A program made the position numbers and the translations under genes. A stretch of 64,000 nucleotides of DNA from a virus. The notes under the pieces were generated by a model. The model saw only the letters and a program-made list of their open reading frames with translations, was not told the origin of the DNA and did no database searches. This document shows positions 49,610-53,073 of this stretch, in pieces (positions within the stretch are counted from its first letter, which is position 1; each line of letters opens with the position of its first letter). The stretch is from the IMG/VR virus record IMGVR_UViG_3300047299_000128, positions 1 through 64,000 of that record, one strand, 5' to 3'.

Positions 49610-52600
49610 GTTATGTTAAAAGTCCAGTAGAACTTGGCCTTAAGACAAATTGCCAAGGCATCTACATCGAAACTAATAGTCCTAGAATCGAAGGTCTGCT
49701 AGGTACAGGTTATCTAGAATTTGGTATTGGTGACACTCGTGAAGATGCACAATACAGTACCATTGCAAGCCGAATGAAGGGTCACGAAAGCTCTAAAAAT
49801 CTGGGCTGGCAACATTATCTCTTAGATTCTATCCCAACGCCTGGATATCGAGATTATGCATTGCATAAAGAAGTTCGGCAATCATTTGCGGCACAACATA
49901 AGGACCCAATTACCGGTAAGCGAAACGAAGTTTTTCGTGTAGCGGTAGAAGAGATGTTGGTCCAACAATTTGTTAAGTCTAAGGATTTTGAACCTATCCG
50001 TATTTGGTTGACTGAAAAAGTTCGTAAGTGTGCGGCCAAACTGAATCCCAATCATGAGAAACAGGCAGTGACTAAGCGTGATATTCAGATTCTTGTTATT
50101 AAGAAAATCTTGTCTACTCTGCGACAAAAGGGTCTAGTCACTAACTTCGTTTGCGAACTTGCCGCTCGTATCGGTAAGACTATTTTGTTCTTATCTCTTG
50201 CAAAAGAAATGCGAGAAGAATTCGGTCATGAAGCCATGTTTGTTATGGCCTATGGCGTTGGCTTGAGCGTTAAAACATCTTACAAAGACGAATGTGCAAA
50301 ATACAGCGACTTTGACATGATGCAGTTTATCGATGCCGCTGATAATGATGCCGAAAGTCAATATAAGCAAGCTATTGCAAAAGGCAAAATGCCTGTAGTG
50401 TTTATCAGCCTTAATCCCGACGCAGAAGAAAAATATGAATGGATTAATCAACTAGCAGGTACCTATATTGCCCTGCTAGAAGAAACCGACTTTGGCACTC
50501 ATACAGATAGTCAAGTAGAAAAAGTTGATTACATTTTAGAAAACAAAACAGCTACTCGTATCAATGCTAGTGGCACTAATATTGGTCGACTGGCTAAGGC
50601 GTTTGGCGAGAATGCCATTGATGAGATTATTAGCGTTCCCTACTGTATGGTAGAACAAGATCCAAGCATTCCTAATGTAGTAGTGCGCCGATTCTACAAT
50701 ATGTTGTTTAATAGTCGTATCAATAAACTACTAGAAGACTTTGACAAGGATCTGTTGCCTAACATTACAAAGATCTTGTCTAAGCCTTTGAGTCAGCAAA
50801 AGTTTATTAGTGCATTGTTCCAAGATATCTTTGGGTATCAACCTATCTACGGATTTAATATCAGTGACTGTGCTGGTGAAGAAATTAAACACTCAATGTT
50901 GTTTGTTAATATCTCTAAGCAAGCAATGGATCAACTTGCAGAAGTCATTGAAAAGGCATGCCCTGAGCATAAGGTTCTAATCCTCAACAGCTACTATACT
51001 GACAACAAAGAAGCCGAAGGTGATACCAAAGAAGAACTAGTTCGCCTACAAAACAGATATTATGAAGACCGTGACAAACTGCTAGTGATCACTAACATGA
51101 TGGGCACTCGCAGTTATAGCATTCCGGAGATTCAAGCATGTTTGTTTATGCAAGAAGGCGGAGATGTCTATCCTTACATGCAGAAGTATAGTCGTTGCCT
51201 TACACCCGGTTATGGTAAAAAGTTTGGTCACATCTTTGACTTTGCGTTTGATCAGAGCAAGACTCGTAATACTGTAATGAGTGTTGCAGTAGAAGCGGCA
51301 TTATTGATTCGTCAAAAAGGTAAAACTTATCCCGACGCAGTTCGCGAAGTGTTGAATAGTGTCAACATTAAGGATATGGTTTCTGGCAACTGGATCGATG
51401 CTGACGAAGTTATCAAGCAGTTCGAAGACAACAATAAGTTGTTGGAGATTGCAAACGCACATACACGGATTACCATCGAAGATCTTACTTCTGAAGAGAT
51501 TGAAGCATTTGGAGAGTTGGCTAAACGCTCTTCTGGAAGTAAGGCAGAAAAGTCTAAGATTGATAAAGTTGTTGCTACTGGTAAGACTTTTGATTCTGGT
51601 AATACTGCCTCTGGTAGACCAAAAAAAAATCCTCTTAAAGCAATCGTAGAAAAAGCCATTCGCATGATTAACGGAAGTGCTACCACTGTGCTAGCCTTAA
51701 GCAATTATCAAGGAGAAAGTTTCCTTGAGTGTGTAGATATCATCGATGCTAGTGCAGAAATGAGCCGTGAGTTTGCAGAACTATATGGCGTATATCCCGA
51801 TACAATTAAGCGGCTTGCAAATCGCCTAGAGATTTCTACGCTAGACATGATTGTTAGGATGAGTAAATATAACAACAAACAGAAGCACATCGAGAACAAT
51901 GCACTGGCTATTCTTAAAGATGATCCAAAACTTTGGTTTGATATCTTTGGTAATCGAGAACTAAAGCGTTTTATTAAGAGTAAACATTGCAAACGGATTC
52001 TTGTAGTAGCAGGCGGCCATGGTTCCGAGATCGATGTTCTTGTGGACATGTTTGGTGTTGAAATTGTAGACAAGATTGTGTATAATGACAAATACAGTTT
52101 TCTCTGTAATCAGATTAAACGCAAGTATCCTACTATTGAAGTAGTTAAAGGAGACTTTACAGAATTGGAGTTTAGTATGAAATTTGATGTAGTAGTAGGG
52201 AATCCTCCTTATCAGGATTCTAATAATGATAAGAGAATGTTATGGAATCAAATTCTAGACAAAGCGACCGAAGTTACTAACAACAATGGTTATATTGCGA
52301 TGGTCACACCAACAACCTGGCTTACTGCAAAAACAAATATCCACAATAGTTATAAAATGTTTGAAGAAAAGCAAGTAGAGCGAGCAGTCATTTTTGATAA
52401 AAATGACAAACCGTTTGATGAAGGAACCAGCGTTTCTTATACCATTACTAAAAACATAAAACGAACAGCTCTTACTCCATTGTATTTTGCACAATACTCT
52501 GCGGGAGTAGAAAATCATGTTGCAGATATTGATATCTCTAAAGATAAAATTTGGCCAGGCCAACTTACACCTGTGAATATTGCTATACACAATAAACTTC

Positions 52601-53073
52601 AAACTCACAAAAAGATTAAATTCTTAAAGAGCTGTGAGTTCCATAATCAGAAACTTAAAACAAAAAAGATGGTATCTGACACTAAAGATTCTGTATTCCA
52701 ATACACACATCATGTTAGTGCCGCTATTACAAGATACACTAATACTAAATTTAGTGCCCACGATACTTGGAAAGTAATGGTCCCTGTTACATCGACTATC
52801 GATAAAGCAGTAATTGATAATAATTGCGGCCATGGAGAGGACATGCTGAGTCTGTATGTTAAAGATGAAAAAACTGCGTTAAATATCAAAAGTCTTTTTA
52901 ATACTCGATTTTATAAATTTATAGGTATCTTATATAAAAGCGGCAGAAATCAGCCATTGCAAAATCTATTTCCCGTAATGGATTTTACAAAAGTTTGGAC
53001 TGATGCAGAACTATACGCTTATTTTAGTCTGAAGCAAGAAGAAATTGACTATATCGAAGCCAATGTTAAGTAA
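49606..53073 (+). CDS. restriction-modification-like fusion: GIY-YIG-like nuclease + SF2 helicase + N6-adenine MTase catalytic half + TRD
   Basis: GIY..IG.T..R..H / LH..NEVF N-terminus; AARIGKT, LLEETD, ASGT, QKYSRCLT helicase motifs; KFDVVVGNPPY; Eco57I-like C-terminus. Confidence 0.75.
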   Translation: MSYVKSPVELGLKTNCQGIYIETNSPRIEGLLGTGYLEFGIGDTREDAQYSTIASRMKGHESSKNLGWQHYLLDSIPTPGYRDYALHKEVRQSFAAQHKDPITGKRNEVFRVAVEEMLVQQFVKSKDFEPIRIWLTEKVRKCAAKLNPNHEKQAVTKRDIQILVIKKILSTLRQKGLVTNFVCELAARIGKTILFLSLAKEMREEFGHEAMFVMAYGVGLSVKTSYKDECAKYSDFDMMQFIDAADNDAESQYKQAIAKGKMPVVFISLNPDAEEKYEWINQLAGTYIALLEETDFGTHTDSQVEKVDYILENKTATRINASGTNIGRLAKAFGENAIDEIISVPYCMVEQDPSIPNVVVRRFYNMLFNSRINKLLEDFDKDLLPNITKILSKPLSQQKFISALFQDIFGYQPIYGFNISDCAGEEIKHSMLFVNISKQAMDQLAEVIEKACPEHKVLILNSYYTDNKEAEGDTKEELVRLQNRYYEDRDKLLVITNMMGTRSYSIPEIQACLFMQEGGDVYPYMQKYSRCLTPGYGKKFGHIFDFAFDQSKTRNTVMSVAVEAALLIRQKGKTYPDAVREVLNSVNIKDMVSGNWIDADEVIKQFEDNNKLLEIANAHTRITIEDLTSEEIEAFGELAKRSSGSKAEKSKIDKVVATGKTFDSGNTASGRPKKNPLKAIVEKAIRMINGSATTVLALSNYQGESFLECVDIIDASAEMSREFAELYGVYPDTIKRLANRLEISTLDMIVRMSKYNNKQKHIENNALAILKDDPKLWFDIFGNRELKRFIKSKHCKRILVVAGGHGSEIDVLVDMFGVEIVDKIVYNDKYSFLCNQIKRKYPTIEVVKGDFTELEFSMKFDVVVGNPPYQDSNNDKRMLWNQILDKATEVTNNNGYIAMVTPTTWLTAKTNIHNSYKMFEEKQVERAVIFDKNDKPFDEGTSVSYTITKNIKRTALTPLYFAQYSAGVENHVADIDISKDKIWPGQLTPVNIAIHNKLQTHKKIKFLKSCEFHNQKLKTKKMVSDTKDSVFQYTHHVSAAITRYTNTKFSAHDTWKVMVPVTSTIDKAVIDNNCGHGEDMLSLYVKDEKTALNIKSLFNTRFYKFIGILYKSGRNQPLQNLFPVMDFTKVWTDAELYAYFSLKQEEIDYIEANVK

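What the first reader, a model, noticed from the sequence alone, without database searches (positions are those of the whole stretch)
52167..53073. In-frame internal start could release a stand-alone NPPY+TRD subunit
Seen: GGAG (52167-52170) lies 6 nt upstream of an in-frame ATG at 52177. That ATG begins exactly at MKFDVVVGNPPY and gives a 298-aa product. The DNA downstream looks more AT-rich by eye than the helicase part. Inference: one gene yields both the full nuclease-helicase and a short catalytic+TRD chain, which pairs with the 53063 SAM-binding protein to form a protective methylase. Restriction and modification would then share one specificity domain, swappable as a module.
Basis: partly seen in the sequence, partly recalled or inferred. 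Interest (0 to 1): 0.7.

Follow-up and report, generated by a model that had tools for sequence, protein, structure and literature searches.

The report
Nested half-methylase gene in phage enzyme
Inside a jumbo-phage gene for a large helicase-methylase, a conserved internal promoter, ribosome site and start codon probably produce a short catalytic-plus-specificity chain, and that chain would pair with the small cofactor-binding half-protein encoded next door to form a two-piece DNA methylase.

Summary
GGAG (52167-52170) lies 6 nt before an in-frame ATG (52177 = Met858), which opens a 298-aa frame starting MKFDVVVGNPPY. GC falls from about 0.41 to about 0.33 downstream.

An SD plus ATG alone is not special: it ranks 9th of 304 internal ATGs in the window. 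The context makes it special.
- Related phages carry stand-alone genes that start exactly at MKFD..GNPPY.
- The 53063 protein belongs to a broad, highly conserved family of orphan N-halves (motifs X-I-II-III). These end exactly where MKFD begins and overlap the stop of the preceding NPPY gene.
- A near-consensus sigma-70 promoter (TTGAAA-17-TATAAT, 52058-52086) lies 91 nt upstream of the ATG and is kept in 7 of 7 sequenced close homologs. A terminator follows the small gene.
- A complete 400-kb relative has no other catalytic half for its orphan.
- A complex model joins the two chains through the canonical beta1-beta4 sheet.

Against: the full-length protein carries its own conserved SAM-binding half. 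Distant homologs lack the SD. No expression data exist. The N-terminal "nuclease" is unproven.

Verdict: a probable nested split methylase, a new variant of known kinds. The scan's first-stage readers also noted a split methylase on this same stretch.

The parts
49395..49423 (+). Operon promoter P1: TTGACA-17-TATAAT, a perfect 12/12 match, 183 nt upstream of the large ORF.
   Evidence: It is one of only ten sites of 11/12 or better in the 64-kb window. All ten are on the + strand; shuffles give 2.2.
49606..53073 (+). Large ORF (P0001, 1155 aa). Layout: N-terminal domain of unknown fold (1-150), SF2 helicase-like ATPase (about 154-572, Walker A GKT 190-192), helical coupler (about 573-765), gamma-class N6-adenine MTase (766-940) and variable TRD (about 941-1130).
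   Evidence: Foldseek's top hit is Type ISP LlaBIII 4xqk (E 1e-21). VIA-align gives RadD Z 21.9 (residues 154-689), M.TaqI Z 21.4 (769-1129) and LlaGI nuclease-deletion Z 18.9 (155-1136).
51997..52158 (+). The large protein's own (cis) SAM-binding half: motif I ILVVAGGHGSE (798-808), motif II YND (826-828), motif III GDF (849-851).
   Evidence: Nearly invariant in 107 homologs. In the AF2 model, beta1 798-801, beta2 824-828 and beta3 845-848 pack before beta4 860-865, at pLDDT about 88-94.
52058..52086 (+). Internal sigma-70-like promoter P2: TTGAAA-17-TATAAT (11/12), inside the coding sequence. The -35 box spans codons 818-820 and the -10 box is Tyr826-Asn827. The expected start near 52093-52096 would give a leader of about 83 nt with no earlier ATG.
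Evidence: It is the only one of the ten strong sites that lies deep inside a long ORF. It is kept in 7 of 7 close homologs (TTGATA, TTGAAA or TTGCTA, then 17 nt, then TATAAT).
52167..52170 (+). Shine-Dalgarno-like GGAG (codons Leu854-Glu855), 6 nt before the ATG.
   Evidence: GGAG is kept in 6 of 7 homologs and is GGAA in the seventh. GAG makes up only 23% of Glu codons, TTG 21% of Leu codons and ACG 5% of Thr codons in these genes.
52177..53073 (+). Nested in-frame ORF (P0003, 298 aa): Met858, motif IV GNPPY (52198-52212), motifs V-VIII and the TRD. It shares the stop codon of the large ORF.
   Evidence: Stand-alone homologs start at this Met.
52426..52995 (+). Hypervariable, AT-rich target-recognition module (about residues 941-1130).
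   Evidence: The consensus is undefined among otherwise 60-90% identical homologs. GC is 0.32-0.34. Metagenome contigs join 52210-52215 to 53076-53078 with unlike sequence between.
53063..53728 (+). Orphan N-half methylase gene (P0002, 221 aa): motif X GEVFTP, motif I LDPTCGDGQF, motif II VYGVDL, and a motif III-like NIVCYNGLEYDF ending at invariant Phe133. A lineage-specific Lys/Glu-rich tail follows (136-221). The ATG overlaps the upstream stop by 11 nt and its own SD is weak.
53727..53761 (+). Intrinsic-terminator-like hairpin (9-bp stem) and T-run directly after the P0002 stop.

Best explanation
The 3' third of the 1155-aa gene is a gene within a gene.

Transcription from the operon promoter (49395) gives the full-length protein. 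This is a Type ISP-like chain of helicase-like ATPase, coupler, complete gamma-class N6-adenine methylase and TRD.

A second, internal sigma-70-type promoter (52058-52086) would give a shorter mRNA. Its first AUG is Met858, preceded by GGAG. Translation from there yields a 298-aa chain holding only the catalytic strand (NPPY), the rest of the C-terminal half of the Rossmann fold, and the TRD.

Ribosomes finishing this frame re-initiate at the overlapping ATG of the next gene (53063). This produces, in step, the orphan N-half with motifs X, I, II and III. The two chains assemble through beta1 (orphan) and beta4 (short chain) into a two-piece methylase. That enzyme reads the same DNA sequence as the large enzyme, because both use the same TRD codons. 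The unit ends at the terminator at 53727.

Shown: the sequence elements, their conservation, the existence of the same split as separate genes in other phages, and the fold complementarity in a model.

Inferred: that the promoter fires, that Met858 is used, that the chains bind and methylate, and that this protects the phage genome from its own large enzyme.
For: 1. Split homologs. L045 has three tandem genes of 271-295 aa that begin MKFDVV[VL]GNPPY, plus two degenerate ones, followed by the orphan. L011 and L031 are similar, and L031 sits behind a 1186-aa fusion protein. At least 15 further stand-alone starts appear. Many metagenome contigs match only 52176-52215 and have AT-rich, SD-bearing non-coding DNA just before the ATG.

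2. The orphan. There are 79 distinct orphans of 127-250 aa, none with NPPY. All end at invariant Phe133, which is where MKFD starts in whole methylases. They are 58-86% identical to P0002 even where the helicase part is only 25-33% identical. In a search seeded on the orphan, an NPPY gene ends at or overlaps its start in nearly every locus. On NCBIfam TIGR02987, P0002 maps to positions 1-103 and P0001 887-1010 maps to 182-304, in the same order as a single-chain methylase.

3. No other partner. The CheckV-100%-complete 399.8-kb relative has one Eco57I-type module (the large gene) and one orphan. The 74.7-kb record of this phage has none besides P0001.

4. Start signals. Met858 is kept in 106 of 107 homologs. 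In an unbiased set, 146 of 163 NPPY motifs have this Met. Upstream SD energy averages -5.4 kcal/mol, against -1.8 for 902 other internal ATGs of the same loci. The synonymous-resampling mid-P is 0.37 over 94 clusters, against 0.52 for controls. G-GAG is kept in 6 of 7 close homologs despite rare codons. The raw synonymous identity of codons 854-861 is the highest of 1032 windows: 0.95 against a gene mean of 0.59.

5. Promoter. TTGAAA-17-TATAAT is kept in 7 of 7 close homologs. It is one of ten strong sites in 64 kb. The other nine lie in intergenic DNA or at gene junctions just ahead of ORF starts. Matches of 11/12 or better occur upstream of the junction Met in 15 of 172 fused methylases, against 1 of 501 control windows. 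These include an unrelated subfamily with TTGACA-18-TATAAT.

6. Complex model of 858-1155 with P0002 1-140. The score is 0.85 and the best of 3 controls is 0.00. This mark was reached by 58 of 80 solved complexes and 2 of 110 mismatched pairs; the counts hold only roughly because my own alignments were used. The runs agree in at least 95% of contacts and the partner's pLDDT is at least 84. The interface is 858-869 against 55-62. The pass may reflect likeness to solved single-chain methylases.
Against: - The full-length protein has its own complete, nearly invariant SAM-binding half that packs normally in the model. Catalysis therefore does not need the orphan.
- The Met is also a hallmark of single-chain methylases of this subfamily, so it could be structural.
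- After correcting for codon usage, the junction ranks only 32nd of 1032 windows for synonymous constraint.
- The -10 box is encoded by invariant Tyr-Asn and the -35 box by [VI][DE]I. Preferred codons alone give the promoter-like site with probability of about 0.15-0.26 per lineage.
- Only 7 homologs with DNA were available, and they are related.
- Distant fusion homologs (L017, L081) have the Met but no SD.
- Some orphan-linked methylases lack a Met at the junction. Where Val replaces it, the codon is usually not GTG.
- The SD is partly paired in the predicted leader fold.
- There is no transcript, ribosome or protein evidence.
Confidence: 0.55

Rival explanations
1. No short product is made. 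Met858, the GGAG and the promoter-like hexamers are by-products of protein-level constraint (motif II Tyr-Asn, an acidic motif III loop, a hydrophobic residue before beta4) in an AT-rich genome. The orphan N-half does something else. It might regulate or stabilise the full-length enzyme, act as a SAM-binding or anti-defence protein, or serve C-half genes in the unsequenced 79% of this genome.
For: - The Met is present in 146 of 163 NPPY contexts, including ordinary single-chain methylases.
- An SD-like site this strong occurs at 6% of internal ATGs, and two others occur in the same gene.
- Synonymous constraint ranks only 32nd of 1032 after codon-usage correction.
- The promoter residues are invariant at the protein level in all 107 homologs.
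- L017 and L081 lack the SD.
- Some orphan-linked methylases lack the Met.
- The phage record is only 21% complete.
Against: - A complete 400-kb relative has no other catalytic half.
- Half a Rossmann fold is unlikely to be a stable protein on its own. This is inference.
- The orphan ends exactly at the split point and is translationally coupled to the NPPY gene in nearly all loci.
- Rare codons (GAG, TTG, ACG, GTG825) are kept where they form the signals.
- A second, unrelated subfamily has perfect internal promoters at the same relative place.
Confidence: 0.3
2. The nucleotide-level conservation around 52060-52240, and of the orphan gene, marks homologous-recombination anchors. These would let phages swap the TRD cassette between conserved flanks. 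On this view they are not expression signals.
For: - The TRD is hypervariable between conserved flanks.
- Several close homologs match only up to about residue 905.
- Contigs join 52210-52215 to 53076-53078 with unlike sequence between.
- A close relative's contig lists no differences in 52062-52241, against about 6% elsewhere (that table was truncated).
- GC dips over the TRD.
Against: - Recombination anchors do not explain why the hexamers, their 17-nt spacing and the GGAG are kept where the flanking synonymous sites vary (GGN849 has four different codons).
- They do not explain why the orphan is conserved at the protein level across phages whose other genes are only 25-33% identical.
- This reading is compatible with the best explanation rather than exclusive of it.
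Confidence: 0.1
3. The 53063 gene is the decaying stump of a second, once complete methylase gene and has no function.
For: Arrays of complete methylases precede the orphan in some phages (L035, L056, L018). A truncated last copy is therefore conceivable.
Against: - P0002 is 58-86% identical across very distant phages.
- All 79 distinct orphans end at the same residue, with 16 invariant columns.
- Start-stop overlap with the upstream gene is conserved.
Confidence: 0.03

Closest known systems
Type ISP restriction-modification enzymes LlaGI and LlaBIII (PDB 5ffj, 4xqk; defined in PMC4666363)
   Same: A single chain with an SF2 helicase-like ATPase, a helical coupler, a gamma-class N6-adenine methylase and a C-terminal TRD, in the same order. 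It is the best Foldseek hit over about 1300 columns, and VIA-align gives Z 18.9 with 522 residues aligned.
   Different: - It is phage-borne and about 400 residues shorter.
- No Mrr-family or any other nuclease could be recognised in residues 1-150.
- It is followed by an orphan N-half gene and carries internal expression signals. Neither is described for LlaGI or LlaBIII, to my knowledge.
Eco57I-type systems: a bifunctional restriction-methylase plus a separate methylase of the same specificity (from my own knowledge; Pfam PF07669)
   Same: The methylase domain belongs to the Eco57I Pfam family (51 bits against a cut-off of 25). The proposed logic is the same: a large bifunctional enzyme accompanied by a dedicated methylase for the same site.
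   Different: Here the dedicated methylase would not be a separate whole gene. It would be built from a nested product of the large gene plus a half-protein, so both enzymes use the very same TRD codons.
Naturally split DNA methylases M.AquI and M.EcoHK31I (two polypeptides forming one cytosine-5 methylase; from my own knowledge)
   Same: One catalytic domain would be assembled from two polypeptides encoded by adjacent or overlapping genes.
   Different: - Those are C5-cytosine enzymes split at a different place.
- Here the split falls between motifs III and IV of an N6-adenine enzyme.
- One conserved SAM-binding half appears to serve several interchangeable catalytic/TRD halves.
- I found no description of this in the held literature.
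In-frame nested phage genes: T7 gene 4A/4B and lambda C/Nu3 (from my own knowledge), and two-polypeptide endolysins (PMC9430671)
   Same: An internal in-frame start with its own ribosome site gives a shorter protein that shares the stop codon and C-terminal domains with the long form.
   Different: The short form here would be an incomplete fold that needs a third gene's product to function. It also appears to have its own promoter.
Type I systems, where one HsdS specificity subunit serves both the methylase (M2S) and the restriction complex (R2M2S) (PMC3874165)
   Same: Restriction-type and modification-type assemblies share a single specificity module, so a change of specificity affects both at once.
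   Different: In Type I systems the sharing is through a free S subunit. Here it would be through double use of the same codons.

Membership tests
Type ISP restriction-modification enzyme | Single polypeptide carrying all the activities. | tested here: met
   One 1155-aa ORF, 49606-53073. The architecture is kept in 107 homologs of 1050-1250 aa.
Type ISP restriction-modification enzyme | N-terminal Mrr-family (PD-(D/E)xK) nuclease. | tested here: inconclusive
   No Pfam, PHROG or NCBIfam hit falls in residues 1-150. A profile search against PDB sequences found nothing below E 0.5. The domain-only model is poor (pLDDT 55) and its best structural match is Z 3.2. The conserved residues Gly18-Ile19-Tyr20, Gly42, Arg56 and Glu108 hint at some enzyme but were not assigned to a fold.
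Type ISP restriction-modification enzyme | Superfamily 2 helicase-like ATPase. | tested here: met
   VIA-align gives Z 21.9 to RadD (331 aligned, rmsd 3.7, residues 154-689), with Snf2 and RIG-I matches as well. Gly190-Lys191-Thr192 is invariant and LEETDFG is conserved. Distant homologs carry Pfam ResIII.
Type ISP restriction-modification enzyme | Coupler domain, then a gamma-class adenine methylase, then a TRD, in that order. | tested here: met
   The alignment to LlaGI spans 155-1136 (Z 18.9, 522 aligned). M.TaqI, including its DNA-binding domain, aligns to 769-1129 (Z 21.4).
Gamma-class N6-adenine DNA methylase (Pfam Eco57I PF07669) | Family profile match above the curated cut-off. | tested here: met
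   51.2 bits against a cut-off of 25.3, over residues 848-935.
Gamma-class N6-adenine DNA methylase (Pfam Eco57I PF07669) | Motif order I-II-III-IV(NPPY)-...-TRD in one chain. | tested here: met
   Full-length P0001 has GGHGSE 803-808, YND 826-828, GDF 849-851, GNPPY 865-869 and then the TRD. P0002 alone has only X-I-II-III, and the nested 298-aa chain alone has only IV-VIII plus the TRD.
Two-chain (split) DNA methylase | Each chain lacks motifs that the other supplies, and the break points match. | tested here: met
   The orphan family ends at Phe133, directly before the position of MKFD. Mapping on TIGR02987 is colinear. In relatives the C-half is a separate gene starting at this Met.
Two-chain (split) DNA methylase | The C-half exists as a separate polypeptide in this phage. 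| not testable with these tools
   There is no separate gene in the 74.7-kb record. A separate chain would depend on internal initiation at Met858. No RNA run was listed.
Two-chain (split) DNA methylase | The two chains associate and are active together. | not testable with these tools
   Only a model is available. The score is 0.85 against a best control of 0.00, and the mark was reached by 58 of 80 solved complexes and 2 of 110 mismatched pairs. The pass may stem from likeness to single-chain structures.
In-frame nested gene with internal initiation | In-frame start codon with a ribosome-binding site, sharing the stop codon of the long form. | tested here: met
   The SD energy of -5.9 kcal/mol is equal to that of typical gene starts in this phage. 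The large ORF's own start has the same TTGGAG.
In-frame nested gene with internal initiation | The shorter product has been detected. | not testable with these tools
   This needs a western blot, N-terminal proteomics or initiation-site ribosome profiling.

The most novel reading that the evidence does not exclude
Many phages may use a modular, two-piece adenine methylase. One highly conserved SAM-binding half-protein would act as a common subunit for any number of interchangeable catalytic-plus-TRD chains. Some of these chains are encoded as tandem stand-alone genes. Others would be released from inside whole methylase or Type ISP-like genes by conserved internal promoters and start codons. 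On this reading, a phage can change or multiply its methylation specificities by swapping only the TRD cassette. In the fused form, its translocating enzyme and its protective methylase would always change specificity together.
Probability: 0.45. Interest if true: 0.85.

Novelty: new variant of a known kind. Interest (0 to 1): 0.72.

Why it matters
If the nested product is real, three things follow.
- It is a compact way to keep an attacking enzyme and its protective methylase locked to the same DNA sequence. Both use the same specificity codons, so a swapped TRD changes both at once.
- It explains a widespread and so far unexplained class of truncated methyltransferase genes in phage genomes. 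I found 79 distinct orphans here. PHROG families 4376 and 11371 are labelled function unknown, and 21201 is labelled only as a DNA methyltransferase.
- It shows that gene callers miss a functional protein hidden inside a long ORF.

A universal SAM-binding subunit that accepts many catalytic/TRD partners would also be a natural scaffold for engineered methylases of programmable specificity. The claim can be tested directly with a tag, two synonymous mutations and a methylome read-out in E. coli.

Tried and rejected
I could not get DNA for the roughly 100 protein-level homologs, so the codon tests rest on 7 genes.
- Megablast against named phages found nothing. tblastn gave only distant hits, at most 26% identity.
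- No RNA holder was listed for the stretch, so there is no expression evidence either way.
- The leader fold (52093-52220) is not unusually stable (z -1.4) and pairs part of the SD. I judged this uninformative.
- Val at the junction in a few homologs is mostly GTA, not GTG. The idea that an alternative start codon is retained there was dropped.
- The N-terminal domain folded alone gave pLDDT 55 and no match above Z 3.2. The PDB profile search gave nothing. "Nuclease" therefore stays unassigned.
- PADLOC gave only generic methylase hits.
- Literature searches for split adenine methylases, internal starts in methylase genes and jumbo-phage methylases found no prior description. The library is incomplete.
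- The reading of P0002 as a decayed pseudogene was rejected on conservation grounds.

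
Full report
WHERE THE WINDOW COMES FROM. The window is the first 64 kb of a 74.7-kb IMG/VR viral record. CheckV rates it about 21% complete, which implies a jumbo phage of roughly 350 kb. The neighbouring genes are all on the + strand. They include the large terminase, a gp32-like SSB, a UvsX-like recombinase, an AAA ATPase, an S8 subtilase and SF2 and DnaB helicases. No named phage is close at the DNA level.

THE OBSERVATION. GGAG sits at 52167-52170, followed by six bases and then ATG at 52177. This ATG is in frame with ORF 49606-53073 and corresponds to Met858 of 1155. 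The nested frame gives 298 aa beginning MKFDVVVGNPPY. GC is 0.40-0.42 over the first two thirds of the gene. It is 0.32-0.36 from about 51850 to 53050 and back to 0.42 in the next gene.

On its own the SD plus ATG is unremarkable. Its anti-SD pairing energy (-5.9 kcal/mol) ranks 9th of 304 internal in-frame ATGs in the window. About 6% of internal ATGs reach -5 or better, against 37% of gene starts. The same gene has two other internal ATGs that score as well, and the protein contains 32 Met residues in all.

WHAT THE LARGE PROTEIN IS. Pfam places an Eco57I-type methylase at 848-935. An AlphaFold2 model built on 107 homologs has a mean pLDDT of 81.
- Foldseek's best hits are the Type ISP enzymes LlaBIII and LlaGI, over about 1300 columns.
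- A second aligner matches residues 154-689 to RadD and other SF2 ATPases (Z 21.9).
- It matches residues 769-1129 to M.TaqI, including its DNA-binding domain (Z 21.4).
- It matches residues 155-1136 to nuclease-deleted LlaGI (Z 18.9, 522 aligned).

The chain is therefore a helicase-like ATPase, a coupler, a gamma-class methylase and a TRD, as in Type ISP enzymes (definition in PMC4666363).

The first 150 residues could not be assigned. There is no family hit and no PDB profile hit. The domain folded alone gave a poor model with no structural match above Z 3.2. "Nuclease" is therefore unproven.

The large protein also has its own SAM-binding half. It carries motif I ILVVAGGHGSE (798-808), motif II YND (826-828) and motif III GDF (849-851). 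All are nearly invariant in 107 homologs, and all are packed normally against the NPPY strand in the model. An internal start at Met858 would cut this half off.

WHAT THE NEXT GENE IS. The 53063 gene overlaps the large ORF's stop by 11 nt and has only a weak SD of its own. Its product has motif X (GEVFTP), motif I (LDPTCGDGQF), motif II (VYGVDL) and a motif III-like NIVCYNGLEYDF. A Lys/Glu-rich tail follows, and there is no NPPY.

It belongs to a large family. I collected 79 distinct orphans of 127-250 aa, none with NPPY. In an alignment of 32 of them, conservation stops at invariant Phe133, and several proteins end one to three residues later. In whole methylases of this group, the next residues are M-K-F-D. 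On NCBIfam TIGR02987 the orphan covers positions 1-103 and P0001 887-1010 covers 182-304. The two pieces together are therefore colinear with a single-chain enzyme.

The orphan is 58-86% identical across phages whose helicase parts are only 25-33% identical. In loci found with the orphan itself as bait, an NPPY methylase gene ends at or overlaps its start in nearly every case.

ARE HOMOLOGS SPLIT AT THIS POINT? Yes.
- L045 has three consecutive genes of 290, 295 and 271 aa that begin MKFDVV[VL]GNPPY. Two degenerate copies follow, and then the orphan.
- L011 has similar genes.
- L031 has a 1186-aa fusion protein, then two C-half-only genes, then the orphan.
- A pattern scan found many more cases with a stop codon 0-8 codons before the Met.
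- When public metagenome contigs were laid on the stretch, many matched only 52176-52215. They carried AT-rich DNA with AAGGAG-, GAGGA- or GGAGG-type sites just before the ATG.

So the catalytic-plus-TRD half does exist as a free polypeptide in nature, next to this orphan family.

The commonest arrangement, however, is the one in the window: a whole or fused methylase plus the orphan. This was seen in 158 loci, against 12 loci with a free C-half and the orphan.

A complete relative is informative here. The 399.8-kb record holding L002 is rated 100% complete. It has exactly one Eco57I-type module, which is its large fusion gene, and exactly one orphan. If the orphan is half an enzyme, its other half there can only come from inside the large gene.

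SIGNALS FOR SEPARATE EXPRESSION. Met858 is kept in 106 of 107 homologs. Across loci found without regard to the Met, 146 of 163 NPPY motifs are preceded by M-[KQ]-F-D. M.TaqI has Glu-Ala at this place (from my own knowledge of its sequence), so the fold does not demand a Met.

Upstream of the junction Met, the SD pairing energy averages -5.4 kcal/mol in 173 fused genes. For 902 other internal ATGs of the same loci it averages -1.8. Resampling synonymous codons gives a mean mid-P of 0.37 over 94 sequence clusters, against 0.52 for the controls.

In the seven close homologs with DNA:
- Codon 854 always ends in G (TTG four times, ATG twice, ACG once).
- Codon 855 is GAG in six.
- In these genes GAG, TTG and ACG make up only 23%, 21% and 5% of their codon families.

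Raw synonymous identity is highest in the whole gene at codons 854-861: 0.95 against a mean of 0.59, ranking 1st of 1032 windows. After correction for codon usage the rank falls to 32nd.

THE INTERNAL PROMOTER. The consensus scan found TTGAAA-17-TATAAT (11/12) at 52058-52086, 91 nt before the ATG. Only ten sites in the whole window reach 11/12, and all are on the coding strand; shuffles give 2.2. Five are perfect. The other nine lie in intergenic DNA or at gene junctions just ahead of ORF starts. They include the perfect site before the large ORF itself at 49395 and four in front of small ORFs between 44928 and 45982. These look like the phage's early promoters, and 52058 is the only one deep inside a long ORF.

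It is kept in all seven homologs: TTGATA, TTGAAA or TTGCTA, then 17 nt, then TATAAT. TAT826, AAT827 and GTG825 are each present in 7 of 7. From codon usage alone such a site would arise with probability of about 0.15-0.26 per lineage.

There is no ATG between the expected start (about 52093) and 52177. A hairpin with a T-run follows the orphan's stop at 53727. Together these frame a unit of promoter, SD, 298-aa frame, coupled orphan and terminator.

The pattern recurs elsewhere. A match of 11/12 or better lies 15-150 nt upstream of the junction Met in 15 of 172 fused methylases, against 1 of 501 control windows. These include an unrelated subfamily (junction PPMNNYNRCD-MKFD) with TTGACA-18-TATAAT.

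DO THE TWO CHAINS FIT? The complex model of residues 858-1155 with orphan residues 1-140 scored 0.85, and the best of three controls scored 0.00. This mark was reached by 58 of 80 solved complexes and 2 of 110 mismatched pairs; these counts hold only roughly because my own alignments were used. The runs agree in at least 95% of contacts and the partner's pLDDT is at least 84. The tightest contacts are 860-864 with 55-60, which is the beta4-beta1 pairing at the centre of every Rossmann-type methylase. Because single-chain methylases have been solved, the pass may reflect that likeness. It shows that the halves are complementary, not that they bind in the cell.

THE TRD AS A MODULE. Among homologs that are 60-90% identical overall, the consensus is undefined from about residue 870 to 1130. 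Several close homologs align only up to about residue 905. Contigs from an estuary metagenome join 52210-52215 to 53076-53078 with unlike sequence between. GC is lowest over this stretch. This fits cassette exchange between conserved flanks. It also offers a partial rival reason for the nucleotide conservation at the junction.

WEIGHING IT. I put 0.55 on the nested split-methylase reading. The component claim that the orphan is the trans-acting SAM-binding half of a split methylase family seems considerably more likely. Use of Met858 in this particular gene is the uncertain step.

The main rival (0.30) is that the signals are by-products of protein constraint and the orphan has another role. 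Five points favour it:
- The large protein has its own intact SAM-binding half.
- The Met is widespread in single-chain enzymes.
- The codon-corrected constraint is modest.
- Distant fusion homologs lack the SD.
- A minority of orphan-linked methylases have no Met at the junction, although many of these have one 1-4 residues upstream.

Recombination anchors (0.10) may add to the conservation without excluding expression. A decayed stump (0.03) is excluded by the conservation.

NOVELTY. Type ISP enzymes, split methylases, shared specificity subunits and in-frame nested phage genes are each known. I did not find a description of either of the following:
- an adenine methylase split between motifs III and IV, with one conserved SAM-binding half serving interchangeable catalytic/TRD halves;
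- a catalytic half nested with its own promoter inside a Type ISP-like gene.

The searches were made, and the library is incomplete. I class it as a new variant of known kinds. Two other first-stage notes of this scan on the same stretch already called it a split or permuted methylase. They are readings of the same DNA, not independent evidence.

Noticed in passing
window 44928-45982: Four perfect TTGACA-17-TATAAT promoters lie at 44928, 45241, 45540 and 45922, within 1 kb. Each precedes a small ORF of 61-93 aa or the AAA-ATPase gene at 45982. This looks like a classic phage early region. It suggests the host RNA polymerase uses E. coli-like sigma-70 signals.
   Followed up: partly
window 49606-50070 (P0001 residues 1-155): This is a conserved N-terminal alpha/beta domain with invariant Gly18-Ile19-Tyr20, Gly42, Arg56, Asp83, His87 and Glu108. 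It has no recognisable family or fold. It occupies the place of the Mrr nuclease in Type ISP enzymes. The GIY...G...R...E pattern loosely recalls GIY-YIG nucleases, but that was not tested successfully.
   Followed up: partly
L035:3311-10349 and L056:3731-10516: Some phages carry tandem arrays of four or five complete methylase genes of about 380 aa. The genes have near-identical N-terminal parts and different TRDs, and each array ends with the orphan N-half. These whole genes start just after the position of motif X, which only the orphan carries.
   Followed up: no
L045:6615-8306: Two C-half-only genes in the L045 array have GNIPF in place of GNPPY. They may be catalytically dead copies or copies with a changed function.
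   Followed up: no
L074, L234, L276, L204, L190 (about 105 nt before the junction ATG): A separate methylase subfamily (junction PPMNNYNRCD-MKFD, about 130 aa before the Met) has perfect or near-perfect TTGACA-18-TATAAT inside its coding sequence. It has a 134-aa orphan N-half downstream.
   Followed up: partly
window 53468-53725 (P0002 residues 136-221): The Lys/Glu-rich, coiled-coil-like tail is lineage-specific. Most orphans lack it. In a close relative's contig, 53499-53558 is replaced by 25 other bases.
   Followed up: no
window 52062-52241: A metagenome contig is about 94% identical to the window over 2 kb. It lists no differences across the 180 nt that hold the -10 box, the leader, the SD, the ATG and motif IV. 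It lists 16 differences in the 320 nt before and 16 in the 187 nt after. The difference table was truncated, so this needs re-checking.
   Followed up: partly
window 50665-50700, 51100-51125 and 51910-51945 (codons about 353-365, 498-507 and 769-779): These three windows show the strongest codon-usage-corrected synonymous constraint in the large gene, above that of the junction itself. No explanation was sought.
   Followed up: no
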